From NCBI GenBank assembly GCA_963663225.1, contig OY760142.1:480001-544000 (forward strand): a stretch of DNA of 64,000 nt, written 5' to 3'. The notes beneath the pieces were generated by a model. The model was not told the origin of the DNA, made no database searches, and saw nothing but the letters and a program-made list of their open reading frames with translations. This document shows, one piece after another, positions 150-43,714 of the stretch (positions are counted from its first letter, which is position 1; each line of letters begins with the position of its first letter). The translations under genes were made by a program, and so were the position numbers. Source of the DNA: Nitrospirota bacterium. Lineage in GTDB: Bacteria > Nitrospirota > UBA9217.

Positions 150-1154
150 TTAAAAGAAGTAACTGATGCCGCCAAGAACCACATCGGCATCGCGATCGTA
201 TGTAGTCACGATACGGTCCCAAGAAGCTCTTATCCCCCAGTGCTCGAAAAACTTATAATTACCTGATAAGGTAACGATTCCTGACAAGCATCCATCATGC
301 TCACCATCTTGTTGTCTGGCTTGATGGTTTATGCTTAAATAAACGCCGCCCCCGATGCCGATCGAAAAACGGTCATCGAAAAACGATCTCACACCCCATA
401 ATTCGGAAACGATCCCGTTTCTTCGGAGCACCTCATTCCCTCCTTCGTTCAACCAGGAAATGGTCCAATCCATATACGGGAAAAGGCGTCTGCGGTATTC
501 AATGCTTCTTGCGTTGGCAAGTTCCGACCCAAAGCTATTGACAATAGTTCTGCCCAAAAATAGAGTGATCTCATTTTTTGCCGGTTCTATCCGCCTGGAC
601 GGTGGTGAACCGCCGGTTGTCGTCAACGACTTAGAGAGAGGGTCAAACCTGTATCCAATTCCGGTAAGCAAAGATACCGTGTCGTAACTTGATATCGCCT
701 GGCTCCAGTTTGAGCGAACCAGGACATACCATCTGTCCGTCAAGTACCAAAGCGCGTCGCAGCTCATAATGATGCCCCAGGCATGTTCGTTGCTCCAATC
801 GGCATTTTCTGTGGCTCTGGTCGTGTCGTAATAAAAAAAAGGGCCGATCCCCGCTGAAAGAACTAGGCGCTTGTCAAGCAACGGCGCGCGAGCCCATACT
901 TGAACGGCATGCCCATCTCTGTGATGGCGCTCAAGATGACCCTCGTTCAGGTAAGAGATGCTGAACGCGTAATAGTCGCCGAATCCTTCGCGATATTCTA
1001 CCTGCCACGCATAGGAGCGATCATATGAATTGGTGTAGTCGTGCATAGCGCCGCCCAGAACAGACAGTTCCTGGGCTCCAACTGGACACACGCCAAGTAA
1101 AGCAATAAAGCTCCATAGCGCTGCTATTTTAATTTTTGCTATAAAATCACTCAA
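150..1154 (-). CDS. Outer-membrane beta-barrel protein with two tandem PagL/acyloxyacyl-hydrolase-like repeats
   Basis: Signal peptide, alternating beta-strand pattern, internal repeat (ISYLNEGH..HRDG vs ISWLNEGG..RRNG), C-terminal Phe. Confidence 0.6.
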   Translation of the reverse strand: MSDFIAKIKIAALWSFIALLGVCPVGAQELSVLGGAMHDYTNSYDRSYAWQVEYREGFGDYYAFSISYLNEGHLERHHRDGHAVQVWARAPLLDKRLVLSAGIGPFFYYDTTRATENADWSNEHAWGIIMSCDALWYLTDRWYVLVRSNWSQAISSYDTVSLLTGIGYRFDPLSKSLTTTGGSPPSRRIEPAKNEITLFLGRTIVNSFGSELANARSIEYRRRLFPYMDWTISWLNEGGNEVLRRNGIVSELWGVRSFFDDRFSIGIGGGVYLSINHQARQQDGEHDGCLSGIVTLSGNYKFFEHWGIRASWDRIVTTYDRDADVVLGGISYFF

Positions 1155-1182
1155 TTCTTCTAGAAATATTCCTTTATTTTTT

Positions 1183-1821
1183 TTAAAAATATTTCGCAGC
1201 TATTTTTGCTTCTTTTACCGCGCTGATCATGGTTCTTCTTAACTGTTCCGATTCAGGATGTATTCCGTCGCATTGAATAATTATTGACTCTATATTCTCA
1301 ATCCCCATGAAGTTCATAATGAAATTGAAATAGGAGACCGTAAATTTTTCATGCTTTCCGGCGTAAAAACCATTCGACGAGTGAATATGCAGACATTTCT
1401 TACCCTGATCTTTTAACAAACCTTCATGCCCTGATGCCGTAAATTTGAACGTTTTGCCCGCAACGCAGATGGAGTCAATATAAATATTGAATTGCGCGGG
1501 AAAGCCTATGTTCCACTGCGGTGTGGCAAATACGTATTTGTCTGCTTTGGCAAATTGCTCGCTCAACCGCCAAATGCGGAATATCTTATGTCTTTCATCT
1601 GCTGTTAATGCTGCTATCGCTTGATTGTGCAGCAGCTTCTCATGAGCATTTAAAACATCTTCGTCGACTCTTTGAATATAATCTCGATAAATATCAAATT
1701 GATCGATCTCATCATGACCATTCCATTTCATATATTCGGTCAAAAATTCAGAACCGACAAAAAGGCTCGGGGATTTATCCAAGGGCTTTAGGTCACAGGT
1801 GATATAAAGAAGTTTTGCCAT
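1183..1821 (-). CDS. azoR: FMN-dependent NADH-azoreductase family (flavodoxin-2)
   Basis: MAKLLYIT start, ADKYVFATPQWN, YIDSICVAGKTFKFT..EGLL motifs; AAGGAGG RBS. Confidence 0.8.
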   Translation of the reverse strand: MAKLLYITCDLKPLDKSPSLFVGSEFLTEYMKWNGHDEIDQFDIYRDYIQRVDEDVLNAHEKLLHNQAIAALTADERHKIFRIWRLSEQFAKADKYVFATPQWNIGFPAQFNIYIDSICVAGKTFKFTASGHEGLLKDQGKKCLHIHSSNGFYAGKHEKFTVSYFNFIMNFMGIENIESIIIQCDGIHPESEQLRRTMISAVKEAKIAAKYF

Positions 1822-2057
1822 GGAGGTCGCCTCCTTACTTCCATATTGTTTCTTCCCGATCTTTAATCAAGGAAGTCGTCTGGCAAAAAATTTATTGCGC
1901 TATTGTTTTCCCCGTCTATCCACCGTCCGCCACTCAGTACGATCAAGGCGTCTCCATGTTCAGGCAAATCCTGATAGATGCACGGTTCCGCATAGCGTTG
2001 AAATTTACTTTTTTTTGCTGATACGATGCACAGGAATCTGCTTTTTTGTGAAATCTA

Positions 2058-2074
2058 TAGCCATTATTGTGCCA
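2058..2074 (-). promoter_or_regulatory. Predicted sigma54 (-24/-12) promoter for the azoR operon
   Basis: Minus strand TGGCACAATAATGGCTA with correct GG/GC spacing, divergent from a sigma54 activator gene. Confidence 0.6.
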
Positions 2075-2214
2075 ATAATTAAATCAATAAAAACAGCAAT
2101 TTATAATTCTATTTTCATTTTAAATACGCTATTACGTAAAAGTATTGTTATATATAGTAAAAAGGCATACAATTACCTCATAACGTAATTTGCATTTATT
2201 ACTACTGAGGTGGA

Positions 2215-3792
2215 GTGATGAAAGAAGTAAACAGAGAGGAATTTTTCCGTGAAATAACTGTCAGAATTTGCAGCAGCCTTCAAATTAAAACTGCGTTAGA
2301 GAACGTTTTCGAATACCTAAAAAATCACATTCCTCTCGATGATCTCATCCTTGGCATCCGCGATGTTAACCTCTCGGCAATAAGAATGATCAGCGATGTT
2401 ACAACAGGAATGATTGAACCCTTCGATGAAATAATTCCTATTCCCAAAGACCTCTGGGCGCGGGTTATGTCTTGGAATAAAAGAGGCCCCGTTATTATCA
2501 ATTCACTAGAAGACAGAGGCGATATCCAGCGCGCTCTCTTCTCTCTTTTAAACAAGAAATATGTGCCGTGCTCTGAAATTACTTTGCCGATCTGGATAGA
2601 AGATGAGAATCTTGGCTTTTTGCTGCTTCGTGTAAAGGGAGAAGGAAAGTATTCGTACTACCATGCGAAGTTGATGGAAAGCGTTTCTGAACCCATAGCC
2701 ATTGCACTAGCAAACGCGCTGGCTCATGAAAAATTGCTGCATTATCGGGACATTCTCATTGATGACAACCGGTTCTTAAAAAATGAGCTTCATCCGCTAA
2801 TGGATGATGAAATCATCGGCGGTAATTCTGGGCTTAGGAACGTTCTCGAGATGGTCCGGCAGGTCGCACCGCTCAACAACTCAGTCCTGCTGTTCGGAGA
2901 AACTGGCACAGGCAAAGAAGTGATAGCCAACGCCATACATTATGCATCTCATCGTAAAGACGGGCCCTTTATCAAGGTAAACTGCGGTTCTATCCCGGAA
3001 ACACTTATTGACAGTGAGCTGTTTGGTCATGAGAAAGGATCTTTTACCGGCGCTATTGCCGAGAAACGAGGACGGTTTGAACGAGCAGACGGTGGTACAA
3101 TTTTCCTGGATGAAATAGGTGAGTTGCCGCAACAAGCGCAAGTGCGGCTTCTTCGCGTGCTTCAAACGCGGGAAATAGAACGAGTCGGCGGAAACAAGCC
3201 TATCAAAATTGATATACGGGTAATCGCCGCCACTCACCGAAATTTGGAAAGTATGGTGTCCGAGAACAGGTTCCGCGAAGATCTCTGGTTCCGCTTAAAT
3301 GTTTTCCCCATCGTGATCCCTCCACTTCGGCAACGAAAAGAAGATATTCCATCACTCGCCCGTCATTTTGCTGCCCAAAAATCAATCGAACTTGGCATTT
3401 CCAACCCTCCAGTTATTGCTCCGGGCGCGTTGCAACACCTTATGGATTATGACTGGCCGGGAAACGTTCGAGAATTGGAAAATCTAATAGAAAGAGAATT
3501 AATTCGCCTCCGCGGTGGCTTGGAGGGGTATATTACCTTCGACTCCCTGCTGCCAGTTCGAAAACAGTCACCAACAGTCACCCTACAGAAGGATACAGTT
3601 GCCCTTGCAGTGTTAAACCTTGATGATGTCAATGCTATGCACATTAGTAATGTCTTAAAAATAACCAAGGGTAAAATTCACGGCCCGGGCGGTGCGGCAG
3701 AGCTGCTGGGAATTAATGCCAATACACTAAGAGGACGAATGGATAGACTGGGTATAAAATATGGCCGCACCAGAGGAAGTTATTTTTTATGA
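2215..3792 (+). CDS. Sigma54-dependent activator (GAF + AAA+ + HTH, FhlA-like)
   Basis: GETGTGKE Walker A, ELFGHEKGSFTGA, FLDEIGE, WPGNVREL, C-terminal HTH. Confidence 0.92.
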   Translation: MMKEVNREEFFREITVRICSSLQIKTALENVFEYLKNHIPLDDLILGIRDVNLSAIRMISDVTTGMIEPFDEIIPIPKDLWARVMSWNKRGPVIINSLEDRGDIQRALFSLLNKKYVPCSEITLPIWIEDENLGFLLLRVKGEGKYSYYHAKLMESVSEPIAIALANALAHEKLLHYRDILIDDNRFLKNELHPLMDDEIIGGNSGLRNVLEMVRQVAPLNNSVLLFGETGTGKEVIANAIHYASHRKDGPFIKVNCGSIPETLIDSELFGHEKGSFTGAIAEKRGRFERADGGTIFLDEIGELPQQAQVRLLRVLQTREIERVGGNKPIKIDIRVIAATHRNLESMVSENRFREDLWFRLNVFPIVIPPLRQRKEDIPSLARHFAAQKSIELGISNPPVIAPGALQHLMDYDWPGNVRELENLIERELIRLRGGLEGYITFDSLLPVRKQSPTVTLQKDTVALAVLNLDDVNAMHISNVLKITKGKIHGPGGAAELLGINANTLRGRMDRLGIKYGRTRGSYFL

Positions 3793-38042: not shown

Positions 38043-38641
38043 TCAAATCCACACTATCTTTTCGAAATCCTGCATTCCTTCCACAATGTGATTTGTTGTG
38101 CCCCGATGGCCCACCTTCAATTCTGCTTCAAGATTGTAATGTTTCAGGCAGGTGCCGCACGAATAGATCTCTACCCCCATGGTTTCCATGTCCTTCAGCA
38201 CGCCGACGGTTTCATCATTCACGGTCGTCAGTTTCACGCCCGCATTTAGAAAAATCATCGTGTGCGGAAGCTGTTTATATATTTTCATGGTATCGAAAAA
38301 ACCTTTAAACAGCTTTTTGCCCAGGTCCTCGTCCTTGCCCATGCTGTCGGTCCCGATAATGAGCAGAAGAGATTTTTTTTTGTTTCCGGTTCCGCAATCT
38401 GCGCTCCGGCGTTTGATTTCGGTTGACAGGCATATCCTTTCACGATTCTGACCTTCCAGTCGCGGTCCTCCCGGTTGATCTCGGCAAAGAGCGCGTTCTG
38501 CGCAGCGTAGCCGGAAAGATTCATGGCGGATTCTTCATTGTCGACAATGACCTCGACAATCCCCTCTTTGATTGTGGACAGGGCCTCTTCCGCCATGAGT
38601 ACCGGCACGGGGCAGGCTTTCCCTCTTGCATCGATTTGCAT
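38043..38641 (-). CDS. yedF: Selenium metabolism protein YedF (TusA + DsrE), frameshifted at an A9 run
   Basis: IDARGKACPVPV in one frame; IGTDSMGK.EDLG..FLNAGVKL..SCGTCL in another; one extra A at 38373-38381 joins them. Confidence 0.8.
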
Positions 38642-38649
38642 ACGTCTCC

Positions 38650-39426
38650 TTATTTTTCAACCGGCATTTTCGCTTCTTTCCAGTCGGCAAATTTTGTCTG
38701 CGCGATGAATGGATACGCAAGCTTGATCAGCTTCCGGTAGGCAGAATAACTGCTGCCGCCGGTATTGCAATAAACGATGATCTTTTTCTCTTTTGGCAAA
38801 ACATCCGAACGGGTCGCAAAAACATCCACGGGAATATTGAGAGCCCCGGGAATATGTCCATCTTTGTATTCTGACTCACCGCGCACGTCAACAATGATAA
38901 GATCTCGGGTCTTGCTGTCGATAAGCTTTTTGAGGTCAACAGGAGTTATAATCGCGGTTTCCACTTTTTTAGAATAATCCGGTCCCGGCACAATGTTCAG
39001 TCCCTTTTCTTCCCATACCGGAAAACCTTCATTATAGATATTGATATTTTTGTATCCGACCGAAGCAGCTTTGATCGCTGACTTTTTGCTCTTTCCGCAT
39101 TTCACACCATTGCAATAAAACACCAGCAGCTTCGTTTTGTCTGCCGGAAGCAGCGCGCGGGACTCTTCGAATTTGTTTTCGGGAATGCTGACGGCGCCGA
39201 TAATATGCGCCTCCTGATATTCCGTCGCTGTTCTCGCGTCGATCAGGAAAAAGTCCTTTTTTGCGTCAAGCATCGCCTTAAGCTGTGCCGTCGAAAGAAC
39301 CGGGAATTCCTGCTCTGCACCCGAAGCCTGAAACGCCGTTGAGATGCTGAGCGCGCACAGAAGCAGAATCATAATCATATTGGCAGCCATTTTCTTTTTG
39401 TGCATCGTGTCCTCCAAAACAGTCAT
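38650..39426 (-). CDS. Exported tandem rhodanese-domain protein
   Basis: Signal peptide; IDAR..HIIGA..FYCNGVKCGKS and VDVR..GHIPGA..YCNTG. Confidence 0.85.
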   Translation of the reverse strand: MTVLEDTMHKKKMAANMIMILLLCALSISTAFQASGAEQEFPVLSTAQLKAMLDAKKDFFLIDARTATEYQEAHIIGAVSIPENKFEESRALLPADKTKLLVFYCNGVKCGKSKKSAIKAASVGYKNINIYNEGFPVWEEKGLNIVPGPDYSKKVETAIITPVDLKKLIDSKTRDLIIVDVRGESEYKDGHIPGALNIPVDVFATRSDVLPKEKKIIVYCNTGGSSYSAYRKLIKLAYPFIAQTKFADWKEAKMPVEK

Positions 39427-39451: not shown

Positions 39452-40309
39452 TTAAAGCTTCATGCTTTCCGCAAGGGCCCGCGGAATCTGCTCGATAATC
39501 TCTGATACCTGGGTGGCCGGAGTGGGTTTTGCATGGAAGCCCGCGAGACGGTTTGTTTCCGCCGCTAGGACTGCTGCTGTGCCTGTTTCCATGCCTCCGG
39601 AAATCAGTGCGGCGACGATTCCGGTGACCGTATCACCGGTTCCTCCGATAGGCTCCAGTGTTTCCACAAGGGGTTCGTTTACCATTGCGAGAATGCCGTT
39701 CCGGGTCGCCACATAATCCGTCCTGCCCTTCACCAGAAGGCACCGTGAAGCGTTCTCATGGGCATACGCACGGGCAATAAGGTCGGGCACACAGTTGCCG
39801 TCATGCAGAATAAACCCCCGTGTGTAGAACGGATGCGGTGCCTCCTCATCGGCCAGAAAGGCGAGTTCTCCGGCGTCCGGAGTGAAAAGATCAAACACAG
39901 GTGCCTGGCCGCTCATCTTGGCCGCATACATAAAGCCGGCATCCGCTATAAGAAGGGGCTTGCGGGGCATGTCCTCCAGTGAAAATAAAATGCGATTGCA
40001 GTAATCCATGTCCGGCAAGATATAATGAAAGGCGACAGCGGTGAAGTCCGCCATCGGAATGTGTCGCAGCAGATGCTCGTACAGTTTCTTGCTGCCCTTC
40101 CCGATGCCGGTGTCGCCTGCCAGGAAGCAAAACGGCAACGGCAGACCGAGGGCTTCGATCGTTTTGACAGCTGCGGCCAGCAGGGCCGGCGTGCCACGGA
40201 GCACCGGGATGGCATTGCCTTCCACGGTGATGCGGCCGTCCCTCAGGACGACCGGTCCGGCAACAAGGGGAAAATTCTCATCAGGTATGGTGCCGGCTAT
40301 CGCAAGCAT
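39452..40309 (-). CDS. Ribokinase-fold (YjeF-C-like) kinase of selenium clusters
   Basis: LIADAGFMYAAKM, FTPDAGELAFLAD, IGGTGDTVTG. Confidence 0.75.
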   Translation of the reverse strand: MLAIAGTIPDENFPLVAGPVVLRDGRITVEGNAIPVLRGTPALLAAAVKTIEALGLPLPFCFLAGDTGIGKGSKKLYEHLLRHIPMADFTAVAFHYILPDMDYCNRILFSLEDMPRKPLLIADAGFMYAAKMSGQAPVFDLFTPDAGELAFLADEEAPHPFYTRGFILHDGNCVPDLIARAYAHENASRCLLVKGRTDYVATRNGILAMVNEPLVETLEPIGGTGDTVTGIVAALISGGMETGTAAVLAAETNRLAGFHAKPTPATQVSEIIEQIPRALAESMKL

Positions 40310-40854
40310 CGACGCTGCATCTCCTCATAAGCCAGTTGCAGCGCGTAGCCGCAGAGCGTGTGGCCTATTTCCCTTGGCGCCGGCGCGTCCGGCAGAGCCT
40401 GCCCAACCAGCTGCTGTGCGAGATAGGGGACATCCGGGCATCCCCCGCCCGAAATATTTACTATGAGAAGGGTTTCCTTTTCCACGGTCAGCTTCATGTT
40501 CGCTGCGCGGACCATGAGGTAGCGGCCAAAGTCTTTCACCTGAAAAAGATCGACCGGTTTGAGCAGCAGGCTGTGGACAGGAACAATCTGAAGCGGAGGG
40601 ATTTCCGCTTTTTTCAGAATACGGACGATATGCAGCTGCTCAATGAGAGGAAATTCAATAACAAGATCACAACCCGTGCGGAGTTCGGGTGGAGGCCCCA
40701 TGACCCGGATCTGCCAGCCGTCCGCCTTCAGTACGCTTTCGGCCCGGATAACCTCGCTGGTATTTTCAAAAACCAGAATTCCCAGGTCCGCGGCCGGAGC
40801 GCCGGCAGGTTCATTCTTTTTCTTTTTTAAAAAATCAAACGCCACGGCAATCAC
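40297..40854 (-). CDS. DUF3343 domain protein
   Basis: GILVFENTSEVIRAE..PPELRTGCDL, SGGGCPDVPYL, TLCGY; GTG start overlaps the tusA stop. Confidence 0.72.
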   Translation of the reverse strand: MIAVAFDFLKKKKNEPAGAPAADLGILVFENTSEVIRAESVLKADGWQIRVMGPPPELRTGCDLVIEFPLIEQLHIVRILKKAEIPPLQIVPVHSLLLKPVDLFQVKDFGRYLMVRAANMKLTVEKETLLIVNISGGGCPDVPYLAQQLVGQALPDAPAPREIGHTLCGYALQLAYEEMQRRCLR

Positions 40855-41069
40855 GCTTTTATAATGGCGATCTTGAATCCTCCGCCATCCGGTTGCATGT
40901 CCCGTACCTTCCATCCGAGTGTTTCCACTGCGCGGACCACGTTTTCCTTTGAGGTGTCCGTGTCGACAAGAATGGTAAACGCCTCCAGCGTTGTGTCGGT
41001 GAGCGCGTCGAGCGTGGCAAGAACCGGTTGGGGACAGGAAAGCCCGCGGGTATCGATCACATTGTTCAT
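40851..41069 (-). CDS. TusA/SirA family protein
   Basis: IDTRGLSCPQPVL. Confidence 0.88.
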   Translation of the reverse strand: MNNVIDTRGLSCPQPVLATLDALTDTTLEAFTILVDTDTSKENVVRAVETLGWKVRDMQPDGGGFKIAIIKA

Positions 41070-42175
41070 GCAGCACCTCCGGAGGCGATTTTCTTTCTCA
41101 TGGTAAAACCGACAAGAAGGCAGAACAGAAGGCCGATAACAACGCCCGATATGCCGAAGGGTCCGATTCCTTTTGGAGAACTCGCGAGTCCAAAGTTGTG
41201 CGCGAAGGCCGCCCCGACCATCATCCCGACGACAAACACAGCGGCATCTCCGTCCCCTTCTCCTGATAAAAACAACTGGCGTCCAGGACATCCTCCTGCC
41301 AGTGTAAACGCGAGTCCGGCAAGCATCATGCCCAGGAAATTCCAAATGCTCATGGTATGGGCGACCGGCTGGTTTTCAAATCCCGGCTTGAATTGTCCAA
41401 GGGCCAGATTGACAACAAAGGCAGTCACGGCAAGGCCCGCGACGCCGTAAAACAGATGGGACTGCCGGAACAGGATCAAATCCCTGAACGCACCCATGGT
41501 GCAAAAACGGCTCCGCTGGGCCAGAAAACCGACCGCCAGCCCCGCGCCAAGCGACAGGAGGAGCGGCGCGTGCATGGCTCCCGGTCCCTTGACACTGTAA
41601 AAAAGAACAGTGTTTTTTTCCTGCCCCTCGATCTGGGGATACACCAGCATCAGCACAAGGAAGCCCATCATGATAAGGGGCATCATCCAGCCGACCGCGG
41701 TATGAGTCGATTGCGATCTGTTCAAACTGTATCCGGCTTTCAAAAACCGCGTGCCGATCCAGATGCCGGCTACAAGACCGAGCAGGCCAAAGATTGCATT
41801 CGCATCACCTCCGGTCAACCGCAGCACTGCGCGCCAGGGACATCCCAAAAAAACCAGGGCACCGATCATCGCGAAAACCCCCAGCAGAAACCGCACGATG
41901 GGATCCGAACCGGCCCGGGGACGAAACTCTTTAAAGCTGTATGCGGCAACCATGGCCCCCAACACAAACCCGATAAGTTCAGGCCGCATGTACTGAACGA
42001 TGTCCGCGCGATGCAACCCCAAAGACCCGGCAATGTCGCGCTCAAAGCAGGCAACACAAATACCCATGTTTCCCGGGTTCCCAAAATACTGCAGCAACGG
42101 TGCAAATAAGCCGATACACGCACCGACGCCGATGATTCCCCATTTTGTCGCAAAAAAATTCTTCAAAACAGCCAT
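41066..42175 (-). CDS. yedE: YedE-family putative selenium transporter
   Basis: GNPGNMGICVACFERDIAG, FLGCPWR, QRSRFCTMG, LAGGCPGRQL. Confidence 0.9.
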   Translation of the reverse strand: MAVLKNFFATKWGIIGVGACIGLFAPLLQYFGNPGNMGICVACFERDIAGSLGLHRADIVQYMRPELIGFVLGAMVAAYSFKEFRPRAGSDPIVRFLLGVFAMIGALVFLGCPWRAVLRLTGGDANAIFGLLGLVAGIWIGTRFLKAGYSLNRSQSTHTAVGWMMPLIMMGFLVLMLVYPQIEGQEKNTVLFYSVKGPGAMHAPLLLSLGAGLAVGFLAQRSRFCTMGAFRDLILFRQSHLFYGVAGLAVTAFVVNLALGQFKPGFENQPVAHTMSIWNFLGMMLAGLAFTLAGGCPGRQLFLSGEGDGDAAVFVVGMMVGAAFAHNFGLASSPKGIGPFGISGVVIGLLFCLLVGFTMRKKIASGGAA

Positions 42176-42303
42176 GTCATCTCCTTCACTGTATTTGCTT
42201 GTTTATTGACCGGGATAAAACATGCAGCGATAACGTAATTGATATTCTCGGAACAGGATGGAGCATCAGCAACACCGCAGCAATTATTCTGTATTTCTGC
42301 GTC

Positions 42304-42449
42304 TGGAGAGAGGAAGTGGGAATCGAACCCACCACGGTTCTCAGATGCATTCCGGCGTAAATATCCGGCAGATATCTCCGCCCGACTGTTGCATCGAACC
42401 GTGATTCTGGTTTTGCAGACCAGGAGGGGCGCCAGCCCCATTACCCCTC
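42304..42449 (-). tRNA. selC*-like tRNA-Cys (GCA) on a tRNA-Sec-type scaffold with a variable arm of about 73 nt
   Basis: About 8-bp acceptor stem, GGGGC-UGGC-GCCCC D arm, CUGGU-CUGCAAA-ACCAG anticodon arm, GUGGG-UUCGAUU-CCCAC T arm, U73-CCA. Confidence 0.8.
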
Positions 42450-42459
42450 ACGGCTATTG

Positions 42460-43512
42460 TTACTGCGTAACGAATATTTTACCGGGTTCCCCGGCAACGA
42501 CCTCACCGATCACTGCCCTGGTCTCGACACCCCGTACAGCGAGGCCGGAAAGAAGTGAATCGAGTTTGTCAGCGGCAACAGCGATCAGAAGTCCTCCGGA
42601 GGTCTGTGCATCTGCGAGAATCAGCTTATCAGTTTCAGCTATTTTTTTATCCCAAACAACCTTCTCGTCCACATACCGCAGGTTTGTACGGGAGCCGCCG
42701 GGAATCCACAAGCGTGCTAGATCCCCTACCCCGTCGAAAACCGGGACCTTTGAAAGTGAAAGTCGTGCACTGACACAACTGCGATGCAGCATCTCATGCA
42801 AATGACCGAGCAAACCGAATCCGGTGATGTCCGTCGCCCCTTTTACGCCTACATCCACCATGGCTTCAGACGCCGGTCTGTTCAGTGTCTTCATGCTCTT
42901 TGTTGCTGTTTCAATCAATGAGTTTGCTGCTTTGCCCACTTTAATTGCCGTGGAAATAATGCCGATACCGAGCGGCTTGGTCAGCACGAGTAAATCACCC
43001 GCGCAGGCGCCGCCCTTCAAAACAACCTTGTCAGGATGCACAATGCCGGTCACCGCCATACCGTACTTCGGCTCTTTGTCATCAATGGAGTGGCCGCCGA
43101 TGATGCTCACCCCGGCTTCCTGCGCCTTTTCAGCGCCGCCCCGCATGATTTTGCCGAGGACATCAAGGGACGCATCCTTCGGGAAGGCAACAAGGTTCAG
43201 CGCGGTAAGCGGTTTGGCTCCCATGGCGTAAATATCGCTCAGTGCGTTCGCCGCTGCGATGGCCCCGAAATCATAGGGGTCGTCGACAATCGGGGTAAAA
43301 AAATCCACGGTCTGAACCATGGCGATTTCATCGCTCAGCTTATAAACGCCGGCGTCGTCCTCTATGCCGGTAAGGACACGGGGGTCCGTGATCGCGGGAA
43401 GCGTCTGCAGAATCCGGTCCAACAACGTTGGACCCAGTTTGCAGGCTCAGCCCGCGCCATGGCTCAAGGCCGTCAGTTTCATCTGGCCGGAAAGGTCTTT
43501 CTCTTCAGCCAC
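42460..43512 (-). CDS. selD: Selenophosphate synthetase, selenocysteine-containing
   Basis: GGAGG RBS, GTG start, HGAG-UGA-ACKLG with the UGA at 43447-43449; DDAGV, TVDFFTP, GGHS, DAQTSGGLL. Confidence 0.95.
43416..43434 (-). promoter_or_regulatory. SECIS-like hairpin in selD
   Basis: GGUCCAAC-GUU-GUUGGACC starting 12 nt after the UGA. Confidence 0.75.
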
Positions 43513-43714
43513 AAAATCCTCCTCTCCGAGCGCAGTCCTTATTCACCCGCCGCAGACTAGCACCCGATACCTGAAAGAGTCAAATTGATAATATCTATGT
43601 TTTATGGAAAAAGGATAGGAATAAACAATGCCTGCCCGCAGAAACTGCCGGGAAATATGCGAACAGAATGAAAAACAGGATAGGCCTGATACGCAGATCC
43701 GGTTTTTCCGGCCA

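What the first reader, a model, noticed from the sequence alone, without database searches (positions are those of the whole stretch)
42304..42449. 146-nt tRNA-Sec-shaped RNA with a Cys anticodon and a giant variable arm inside a selenium operon
Seen: 10 nt after the selD stop, on the same strand, there is a full cloverleaf. It has an acceptor stem of about 8 bp with one bulge or mismatch (GAGGGGUAA/UUCCUCUC), a 5-bp T stem, a Sec-like D arm with a 4-nt UGGC loop, anticodon GCA, U73 and an encoded CCA. The variable region is about 73 nt and self-pairs (CACGGUUC/GAACCGUG, then GAUGCA/UGCAUC, then further hairpins). Known: selC* tRNA-Cys species with a Sec-type scaffold have been described in some anaerobes, and normal tRNA-Sec arms are roughly 20 nt. 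Inference: an arm this large may be incompatible with translation. The RNA could instead be a non-translational cysteinyl or selenium carrier, or a scaffold for the co-encoded SelD/YedE/TusA/DUF3343/kinase/rhodanese/YedF proteins. Standard tRNA finders would probably miss it.
Basis: partly seen in the sequence, partly recalled or inferred. Interest (0 to 1): 0.92.

Follow-up and report, generated by a model that had tools for sequence, protein, structure and literature searches.

The report
Oversized selenocysteine-like cysteine tRNA gene
This is a real gene for a known, rare kind of cysteine tRNA built on a selenocysteine-tRNA frame, but its side arm has grown to about 71 bases, making it about 45 bases longer than the longest class of tRNA described.

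Summary
On the minus strand at 42449..42304, 10 nt after selD, lies a 146-nt cloverleaf. It has an 8/5 acceptor/T domain, a Sec-type D arm, anticodon GCA, U73, an encoded CCA and a 71-nt hairpin as variable arm. Rfam tRNA-Sec scores it 48.9 bits (cut-off 47); ARAGORN misses it.

It belongs to the published selC*/tRNAReC family. These are tRNA-Cys on a tRNA-Sec scaffold, reported to be charged by CysRS, carried by SelB, and to read UGA+SECIS as Cys. The genome also has a normal tRNA-Cys, a canonical selC, selA, selB and a single cysS. Its selD carries an in-frame UGA.

The new part is the arm. I collected 42 distinct relatives: 31 are 94-102 nt, 6 are 119-131 nt and 5 are 141-148 nt. The giant form occurs in three species of one genus and in three metagenome contigs.

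The tRNA body is under strong purifying selection (0-2 changes in 91 nt against 15-25% at selD fourfold sites). The arm interior drifts at about the neutral rate with weak covariation; its base helix and length are kept.

So it is not a pseudogene or a mobile insert. It is most likely a tolerated expansion segment. No RNA data were available, and a function for the arm is not excluded.

The parts
42304..42449 (-). selC*/tRNAReC-type tRNA-Cys(GCA) gene, 146 nt, CCA encoded
   Evidence: Rfam RF01852 48.9 bits; cloverleaf MFE, z -4.37; homologues; body covariation in 42 relatives
42442..42449 (-). acceptor stem 5' strand GAGGGGUA; pairs with 42308..42315 (UUCCUCUC), with a U7-U66 mismatch
   Evidence: In 42 relatives, 6 of the 8 positions pair in 42/42; position 6 pairs in 39/42 and position 7 in 34/42 (U-U in 7)
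42426..42439 (-). Sec-type D arm: 5-bp stem GGGGC/GCCCC with the 4-nt loop UGGC
42407..42423 (-). anticodon arm CUGGU-CUGCAAA-ACCAG; anticodon GCA at 42414..42416
   Evidence: The arm matches the degenerate search pattern (CCYGGTCYGCAAAACCRG) used to collect all 42 relatives, so its conservation is partly by selection
42333..42403 (-). 71-nt variable-arm hairpin. Base helix CACGGUUC/GAACCGUG (42396..42403 with 42333..42340); fast-evolving interior at 42341..42395
   Evidence: Arm alone -34.4 kcal/mol. Variable region of 74 nt: z -5.6, 0 of 300 shuffles as stable. Single copy in the genome. Seven base-helix pairs invariant and the eighth kept in 3 of 5 giant-arm variants; interior 4/55, 19/57, 29/55 differences
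42316..42332 (-). T arm GUGGG-UUCGAUU-CCCAC (5 bp)
   Evidence: all 5 pairs kept in 42/42; pair 4 shows GC/UG/AU/UA/GU
42304..42307 (-). discriminator U73 plus encoded CCA
   Evidence: tail UCCA in 42/42 relatives
42460..43482 (-). selD, Sec type: ATG at 43482, in-frame TGA at 43447..43449 (SHGAG-U-ACKLGP), SECIS-like hairpin about 43405..43444
   Evidence: TIGR00476 348.7 bits; translation and fold; '1 TGA' inside the match
41066..42175 (-). yedE (putative selenium transporter), 128 nt downstream of the tRNA
   Evidence: TIGR04112 494.9 bits
38043..41076 (-). rest of the operon: DUF3343/Se_S_carrier protein (40297..41076), Carb_kinase-like (39452..40309), double rhodanese (38650..39426), yedF in two frames (38043..38641)

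Best explanation
A functional gene for a selC*/tRNAReC-type tRNA-Cys(GCA), transcribed with the Sec-type selD and the yedE-yedF selenium genes and cut out of that transcript.

By analogy with the one tested member of the family, it would be charged with cysteine by the cell's only CysRS, through U73 and the GCA anticodon. EF-Tu would not bind it, as reported for that member, and SelB would carry it. It would then insert Cys at UGA codons followed by a SECIS when Sec-tRNA-Sec is short. One such case is making the first SelD, whose own active-site codon is UGA.

The 71-nt hairpin is an expansion of the variable arm specific to this lineage. It grows out of the normal arm's base helix, is not mobile DNA, and is kept in length. 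Its interior sequence is free to drift. It most likely points away from the surfaces used by CysRS, SelB and the ribosome, and is tolerated rather than needed.

Shown here: the gene, its fold, its family features, selection on the body, drift in the arm, and the genomic context.

Inferred, not tested here: charging, SelB delivery, UGA reading, and the harmlessness of the arm.
For: Family features are all present.

The full Sec machinery is present:
- canonical selC with UCA and G73
- selA at 597 bits
- selB at 376 bits
- selD with an in-frame TGA and a hairpin after it
- a normal tRNA-Cys(GCA) and one cysS

Selection on the body, G000 compared with two same-genus species:
- G004: body 0/91 changes against 15.4% at selD fourfold sites (P = 2e-7).
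- G002: body 2/91 against 25.3% (P = 1.5e-9). Of these two changes, one is in the D loop and the other keeps its D-stem pair as G-U.
- The metagenome variants differ at 5/91; the two acceptor-stem changes are GC<->GU swaps.

A truly decayed copy looks different. G051 keeps only the 5' half, has no T arm and gets no Rfam hit.

The arm:
- It is single-copy in the genome.
- Giant-arm forms occur in 3 of 64 genomes of the class, all in one genus, and in 3 metagenome contigs.
- Contigs of three other metagenome studies also carry them, with no deleted form.

Context: a selD, yedF or rhodanese homologue lies within 500 nt in 16 of 46 selC* loci. Of 85 control loci, 2 have any hit. A Chloroflexota contig has the order yedE-DUF3343-kinase-selC*-yedF.

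Reported function of the family: passages in PMC11415595 and PMC13582414, both citing Vargas-Rodriguez 2018, which I could not open.
Against: - No RNA, charging or binding data exist for this or any Nitrospirota member. The tested member is clostridial and, as far as I know, has a short arm.
- Nobody has shown that a 71-nt arm fits SelB or the ribosome.
- Expanded arms recur in this family (V regions of 47-76 nt in several sequence groups), whereas tRNA-Sec, called the longest tRNA, is only 90-101 nt in all (PMC5330540). This could mean this RNA is freed from ribosomal constraints.
- Arm length (66-73 nt) is kept across variants whose interiors differ at 29/55 positions. Bacteria tend to delete useless DNA, so this hints at selection for the arm.
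- The three genus-level arms fold far better than shuffles (z -5.0 to -5.6).
- The SelD bootstrap idea gets no support from co-occurrence. About 63 of 68 relatives with selD have the UGA form, but only 13 of 101 carry the selC* anticodon-arm pattern.
Confidence: 0.6

Rival explanations
1. The RNA no longer works, or never worked, on the ribosome. The enlarged arm would be a docking module, and the cysteinyl- or uncharged tRNA would serve the co-encoded selenium/sulfur-transfer proteins (SelD, YedE, YedF, DUF3343, kinase-like, rhodanese). It might act as a carrier, as a scaffold, or as the substrate of a tRNA-bound Cys-to-Sec conversion.
For: - Tight, cross-phylum linkage of selC* genes to yedF, selD and rhodanese genes.
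- Repeated arm expansions in Nitrospirota. 13 tRNA-like genomes in a 401-genome phylum sample have a spacing of 51-79 nt from anticodon stem to T loop (V region about 48-76 nt).
- Conserved loop motifs and a compensatory change in the 52-nt arms of another family.
- Arm length is kept.
- z of -5 to -5.6 for three arms.
Against: - The anticodon loop, including G34-C35-A36, is unchanged in all five giant-arm variants; across the 42 relatives its constancy follows from the search pattern used to collect them.
- U73 and CCA are invariant in all 42 relatives and were not required by the filter.
- This is expected for decoding and for CysRS recognition. A scaffold alone would not need it, though CysRS recognition by itself would explain part of it.
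- The interior of this arm drifts at the neutral rate (19/57).
- The interior is poorly structured in the metagenome variants (z -1.3 to -2.0).
- Only 2 of 13 interior pairs covary, and 4 are broken in some sequences.
- No RNA-binding domain is recognised in the operon proteins.
Confidence: 0.17
2. The long hairpin is trimmed after transcription, as with the intervening sequences that RNase III cuts out of rRNA helices. The working molecule would then be a nicked, two-piece tRNA or a shorter one.
For: The G000, G004 and G002 arms are long, mostly paired hairpins (about 25 pairs; -27 to -34 kcal/mol). The sequence of the excised part would be free to drift, as is observed.
Against: - The metagenome variants have weak, AU-rich arms (-15 to -16 kcal/mol) that make poor double-strand substrates.
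- To my knowledge (recalled), no bacterial tRNA is known to be processed this way.
- No RNA reads were available to show ends.
Confidence: 0.08
3. SerRS charges it through the long arm and SelA converts it, so it inserts Sec at UGC/UGU codons followed by a SECIS. This would match what is reported for the Aeromonas tRNA-Sec(GCA).
For: Sec-type scaffold with 8/5 domain, D arm and long arm. A precedent is cited in PMC11415595 and PMC8124441.
Against: - U73 is in all 42 relatives, whereas this genome's true selC has G73.
- The tested GCA-type family member is reported to be a CysRS substrate.
- I did not search for UGC+SECIS genes.
Confidence: 0.07
4. It is a tRNA gene disabled by an insertion and on its way to decay.
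For: - The closest short-arm relatives show that the arm is an addition.
- ARAGORN rejects it.
- There is a U-U mismatch in the acceptor stem.
Against: - Body changes of 0/91 and 2/91 against 15-25% neutral divergence.
- The arm is shared by lineages whose adjacent selD is only about 69% identical over the 36 aa held on contig L174.
- The U-U mismatch also occurs in short-arm relatives (7 of 42).
- The real remnant in G051 looks quite different.
Confidence: 0.03

Closest known systems
selC* tRNA-Cys / tRNAReC (Mukai et al. 2017, PMC5389517; Vargas-Rodriguez et al. 2018, seen only as cited)
   Same: - tRNA-Sec-like scaffold
- U73
- GCA anticodon
- long variable arm
- coexists with a full selABCD set and a canonical selC
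- found in anaerobes including Nitrospirae and Thermodesulfovibrio
   Different: - Total length is 146 nt against 94-102 nt for most relatives I collected (31 of 42).
- The arm is a 71-nt hairpin.
- There is no selB* or cysS* paralogue next to it, unlike the deltaproteobacterial UCA type.
- It has an 8/5 arrangement, not the bulged 8/4.
- It is embedded between selD and yedE.
Canonical bacterial tRNA-Sec (selC, Rfam RF01852)
   Same: - 8/5 13-bp acceptor/T domain
- long D stem with a 4-nt loop
- long variable arm
- scores above the family's gathering threshold
   Different: - GCA instead of UCA, and U73 instead of G73.
- The genome has a separate true selC of 95 nt plus CCA.
- tRNA-Sec is called the longest tRNA, at 90-101 nt (PMC5330540).
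Other Nitrospirota selC* with expanded arms (loci L013, L143, L176, L035, L145, L014; genomes G072, G096, G141, G159, G171, G201, G237, G269, G343, G379)
   Same: Same tRNA body. The arm grows from the same base helix (CACGG/CCGUG).
   Different: - Their V regions are 47-60 nt in the six named loci and about 48-61 nt by spacing in the listed genomes, and many fold as forks with two hairpins (four of the six folded).
- Some carry a conserved UCAUAA loop motif.
- This one is a single irregular hairpin of 71 nt with an unrelated interior sequence.
Expansion segments / intervening sequences of rRNA
   Same: A lineage-specific hairpin grows out of a conserved helix. The base is fixed, and the interior varies in sequence.
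   Different: This is a functional analogy only. It occurs in a tRNA, and no processing has been shown.

Membership tests
selC* tRNA-Cys / tRNAReC | tRNA-Sec-like acceptor/T domain longer than 7/5 (8/5 or 8/4) | tested here: met
   8 + 5, with one U-U mismatch at 7:66. Covariation in 42 relatives supports 8 acceptor pairs and 5 T pairs.
selC* tRNA-Cys / tRNAReC | Discriminator U73 (Cys identity) instead of G73 | tested here: met
   UCCA tail, also in 42/42 relatives. The genome's own selC has G73.
selC* tRNA-Cys / tRNAReC | Anticodon GCA or UCA | tested here: met
   Loop CUGCAAA.
selC* tRNA-Cys / tRNAReC | Long variable arm and Sec-like D arm | tested here: met
   D arm of 5 bp with a 4-nt loop. 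The arm is present but about three times the usual length.
selC* tRNA-Cys / tRNAReC | Host also has the complete Sec machinery (selA, selB, selC, selD) | tested here: met
   selC; selA 597 bits; selB 376 bits; selD 349 bits.
selC* tRNA-Cys / tRNAReC | Charged with Cys by CysRS | not testable with these tools
   Only the sequence determinants U73 and GCA are seen. There is one cysS in the genome.
selC* tRNA-Cys / tRNAReC | Bound by SelB, not EF-Tu; reads UGA+SECIS as Cys | not testable with these tools
   Reported for a clostridial member (passages). No data exist for a giant-arm form.
Canonical tRNA-Sec | UCA (or other Sec-recoding) anticodon with G73 and SerRS/SelA identity | tested here: not met
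   It has GCA and U73. A separate canonical selC exists. It reaches the Rfam model's threshold through the scaffold only.
Deltaproteobacterial (8/4) selC* with selB*/cysS* | A1:U72, UCA anticodon, adjacent selB* and cysS* paralogues | tested here: not met
   G1:C72 and GCA. There is a single selB and a single cysS, both elsewhere in the genome.

The most novel reading that the evidence does not exclude
The enlarged variable arms of Nitrospirota selC* RNAs, with this 71-nt arm as the extreme case, would be functional modules. They would tether the cysteinyl-tRNA to the co-encoded selenium-handling proteins (YedF, DUF3343, rhodanese, kinase-like, SelD). Sulfur-to-selenium exchange, or selenium delivery, would then happen on the tRNA. 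That would be a tRNA-dependent route in selenium metabolism outside the SelA pathway, or a tRNA that has left translation.
Probability: 0.12. Interest if true: 0.85.

Novelty: new variant of a known kind. Interest (0 to 1): 0.5.

Why it matters
If the 146-nt RNA is made and charged, it would be by far the longest tRNA cloverleaf known in bacteria.

If it still works with SelB and the ribosome, it shows how much bulk the variable-arm side of a tRNA can carry. That is useful for engineering tagged or scaffolded tRNAs.

If it does not, it is a tRNA recruited to selenium metabolism.

Two wider points bear on the open question of what tRNAReC is for:
- selC* genes are repeatedly linked to yedF, selD and rhodanese genes in Nitrospirota, and once in Chloroflexota.
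- Arm expansions recur in this family.

The case is ordinary in one respect: the family itself, and its likely role as a Cys backup at UGA, are already published.

Tried and rejected
- **Mobile element or repeat.** BLAST of the 71-nt arm against the 3.26-Mb genome gave only itself. The next best hits were 12-17 nt, or 18 of 20. Rejected.
- **Promoter or terminator hidden in the arm.** The consensus scan of 41900..43700 found nothing inside the tRNA.
- **SECIS mimicry by the arm.** The selD SECIS-like hairpin (GGUCCAAC-GUU-GUUGGACC) has no resemblance to the arm's tip (GAUAUCU-GCC-GGAUAUU). Rejected by eye only.
- **Expression.** No RNA holder was listed. The four runs laid were contigs, so they show no ends or levels.
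- **SelD bootstrap tested by co-occurrence.** Not discriminating.
- **Covariation in the arm interior.** Only five sequences, and the result is weak.
- **ORF 42163..42441 (92 aa) overlapping the tRNA.** Not pursued.
- **Census of short-arm selC* across the phylum.** Left out, so the fraction of selC* with expanded arms rests on the 42 collected sequences.
- **Supplements.** Those of Mukai 2017 (Figures S1, S8-S13 and Table S1) were closed. They may already show long arms and gene neighbourhoods for Thermodesulfovibrio and Nitrospirae selC*.
- **Literature on a very long arm.** Searches found no paper whose listing or opened passages describe a variable arm of this size.

Full report
**What is there**

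The feature lies on the minus strand. Read 5' to 3' from 42449 to 42304, it is a 146-nt cloverleaf with these parts:
- an acceptor stem GAGGGGUA/UUCCUCUC (8 positions, U7-U66 mismatch)
- a D arm GGGGC-UGGC-GCCCC
- an anticodon arm CUGGU-CUGCAAA-ACCAG (anticodon GCA)
- a 71-nt hairpin as variable arm (window 42403..42333)
- a T arm GUGGG-UUCGAUU-CCCAC
- U73 and an encoded CCA

The minimum-energy fold of the whole molecule is exactly this cloverleaf: -67.6 kcal/mol, z -4.37, with 0 of 200 shuffles as stable. Rfam's tRNA-Sec model matches it end to end at 48.9 bits (gathering score 47, E 8.3e-7) and places a 55-nt insertion in the variable arm. ARAGORN does not report it, either in the window or among the genome's 47 tRNA genes.

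**Surroundings**

The gene starts 10 nt after the stop of selD (TIGR00476, 348.7 bits). It is followed after 128 nt by yedE (TIGR04112, 494.9 bits). Then come a DUF3343/Se_S_carrier protein, a Carb_kinase-like protein, a double rhodanese and yedF, all on the minus strand.

selD is a selenoprotein gene. Its frame starts at the ATG at 43482 and passes an in-frame TGA at 43447..43449 (SHGAG-U-ACKLGP). A hairpin of the SECIS kind follows.

Elsewhere, the 3.26-Mb single-contig genome has:
- a canonical selC with UCA and G73
- a normal tRNA-Cys(GCA)
- selA next to selB
- one cysS

It has no second cysS or selB. The only other strong selB-family matches are two EF-Tu-like genes.

**Which family**

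These features define the selC* tRNA-Cys of Mukai et al. 2017 (PMC5389517; I read passages and section 17). That family was found in anaerobes including Thermodesulfovibrio and Nitrospirae.

Two later papers cite Vargas-Rodriguez et al. 2018, which calls the family tRNAReC. One review states that a GCA-anticodon member from Desulfotomaculum nigrificans decodes UGA as Cys, does not bind EF-Tu, and is delivered by SelB (PMC11415595, passage). A 2026 paper repeats that both GCA and UCA types recode UGA in the presence of a SECIS (PMC13582414, passages). I could not open the 2018 paper itself.

Record titles of related contigs place the organism among Nitrospirota. The same-genus contig is titled an uncultured Nitrospiraceae bacterium.

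**Relatives and arm lengths**

A BLAST of the tRNA against 101 related genomes gave full-length matches only in G004 (97% identity) and G002 (86%), both in the same genus. A third species of the genus (G003) and members of other genera and families matched only the two tRNA halves, with short spacing between them. Rfam confirmed tRNA-Sec-like hits in 17 of the 18 loci I submitted; the exception was L020.

A second pattern scan of metagenome contigs returned 16 stretches. Five of these are tRNA-like. Three of those five (L163, L174, L177) carry a giant arm.

After filtering for a paired T arm and acceptor, I had 42 distinct selC*-GCA sequences, all ending in UCCA:

| Total length | Number of sequences |
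|---|---|
| 94-102 nt | 31 |
| 119-131 nt | 6 |
| 141-148 nt | 5 |

Further census results:
- In the genome's class, the giant form is in 3 of 64 genomes, all in one genus.
- In an even sample of 401 genomes of the phylum, 14 genomes match an arm-length pattern for 51-81 nt between the anticodon stem and the T loop.
- 13 of the 14 look tRNA-like. I did not check the fourteenth (G356).
- Only G000, G004 and G002 reach 77-79 nt. The others are 51-64 nt.

So large arms recur in Nitrospirota selC*, and this is the extreme. For comparison, tRNA-Sec is described as the longest tRNA, at 90-101 nt (PMC5330540, passage).

**Is the tRNA body alive?**

Across the 42 sequences, six of the eight acceptor positions pair in every sequence; position 6 pairs in 39/42 and position 7 in 34/42. 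All five T-stem pairs and the five inner anticodon-stem pairs are kept in 42/42, though two of those anticodon-stem pairs are allowed by the search pattern to vary only in matching form. Several positions show switches of pair type.

I compared the tRNA with selD fourfold-degenerate sites as a neutral yardstick. All differences are measured against G000.

| Compared with G000 | selD fourfold-site divergence | tRNA body differences | Arm interior differences |
|---|---|---|---|
| G004 | 15.4% | 0/91 (P = 2e-7) | 4/55 |
| G002 | 25.3% | 2/91 (P = 1.5e-9) | 19/57 |
| L163, L174 (metagenome) | not measured | 5/91 | 29/55 |

- One of the two G002 body changes is in the D loop; the other keeps its D-stem pair as G-U.
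- The G002 interior value is not lower than neutral.
- Two of the five body changes in the metagenome variants are GC<->GU swaps in the acceptor stem. One changes U55 of the T loop to C.

A genuinely decayed copy exists for contrast. G051 keeps the 5' half after selD but has no T arm and a broken yedF.

**The arm itself**

- It is single-copy in the genome and holds no promoter-like or terminator-like site.
- Seven pairs of its base helix CACGGUU/AACCGUG are invariant in all five giant variants; the eighth (C-G) is kept in three.
- Arm length is 66-73 nt in all five.
- In the consensus interior helix of 13 pairs, 4 never vary, 3 vary on one side, 2 change on both sides, and 4 are broken in some sequences. 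81.5% of cells are paired.
- The three genus-level arms are much more stable than shuffles: z -5.6, -5.0 and -5.2, with 0 of 300 shuffles as stable.
- The metagenome arms are not: z -2.0 and -1.3.

Contigs from three metagenome studies (biofilm, bioreactor, anaerobic digester) carry the arm with G004-like changes. One of them (the biofilm run, X5) also has a more divergent variant. No contig joins across a deleted arm. A fourth run holds an identical 15.6-kb contig and may be the source of the genome.

**Reading**

The gene is functional and belongs to the known family. The arm is an old, lineage-specific expansion. Its presence and length are kept, but its interior is nearly free to change.

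The most economical mechanism is the published one. Cys-tRNA is made by the single CysRS and taken by SelB to UGA+SECIS sites. The site in the neighbouring selD is an obvious client, and the arm is tolerated.

Charging, SelB binding, decoding and the fate of the arm are all inferred. No RNA run was listed.

The bootstrap idea for SelD is not backed by distribution. About 63 of 68 relatives with selD have the UGA form; all but G061, G070, G075, G078 and G094 do. Only 13 of 101 have the selC* anticodon-arm pattern, and one of those 13 (G097) is not a tRNA.

**What keeps the bolder reading open**

selC* genes sit within 500 nt of a selD, yedF or rhodanese homologue in 16 of 46 loci. Of 85 control loci from the same scan, 2 have any hit. 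All five full-length giant-arm loci and the truncated L177 are within 13-62 nt of one. A Chloroflexota contig has the order yedE-DUF3343-kinase-selC*-yedF.

That linkage, together with repeated arm growth that I saw described for no other tRNA family, and retained arm length, leaves room for an arm-dependent role with the selenium proteins. I put that at about one in eight.

**Verdict**

- It is a new variant of a known kind.

The supplements of Mukai 2017, which I could not see, may already show long-armed Nitrospirae members. That would lower the novelty further.

Noticed in passing
L052, L053, L070, L092, L094, L101 (deltaproteobacterial / Desulfobacterales-type contigs): tRNA-Sec-like genes with a UCA anticodon whose VARIABLE ARM is itself a copy of the Cys anticodon stem-loop (CCCGGU-CUGCAAA-ACCGGG). 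That is how my anticodon-arm pattern found them. They end in U-CCA and may be the UCA-type selC* of Mukai 2017. A GCA-bearing arm could serve as a decoy anticodon for CysRS.
   Followed up: partly
window 38043-38641 (-), A9 run at 38373-38381: yedF is split over two reading frames at a run of nine A. In relatives (G060, G046, L065) the two halves are in one frame. This could be a homopolymer assembly error, a real frameshift or slippage; I did not resolve which.
   Followed up: partly
window 43405-43482 (-): selD is a selenoprotein gene: in-frame TGA at 43447-43449 with a SECIS-like hairpin after it. An ORF caller would start it too late, at the TTG at 43425. About 63 of 68 related genomes with selD have the same TGA.
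   Followed up: yes
L185 / L020 (G051:C3, about 301330-301500): A decayed selC* remnant right after selD. The 5' half and anticodon arm are intact, there is no T arm and no Rfam hit, and fragments of yedF follow.
   Followed up: partly
L050 (Thermodesulfovibrionales MAG contig), two copies: One contig carries a normal 96-nt selC* and a second copy. The second copy has about 82 nt between the anticodon arm and the T stem, an imperfect T stem, a perfect 8-bp acceptor stem, U73 and no encoded CCA.
   Followed up: no
L013, L143, L176, L035, L086, L145; G141, G159, G171, G201, G237, G269, G343: In another Nitrospirota family the selC* variable arm is often forked (four of the six arms folded), with a V region of about 52-61 nt. 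It carries a conserved AAAGAC stretch and a 7-nt loop containing UCAUAA, which looks like a CAU anticodon loop. There is an A:U to G:C compensatory change between L013 and L143.
   Followed up: partly
L151 (Chloroflexota MAG contig) about 200-3620: The gene order yedE, DUF3343, kinase-like, selC*-type tRNA-Cys(GCA, U73, CCA), yedF also occurs in a different phylum.
   Followed up: partly
L163, L174, L177 (metagenome contigs): The giant-arm variants from metagenomes have C instead of the near-universal U55 in the T loop (UCCGAUU). This is seen in all three contigs.
   Followed up: no
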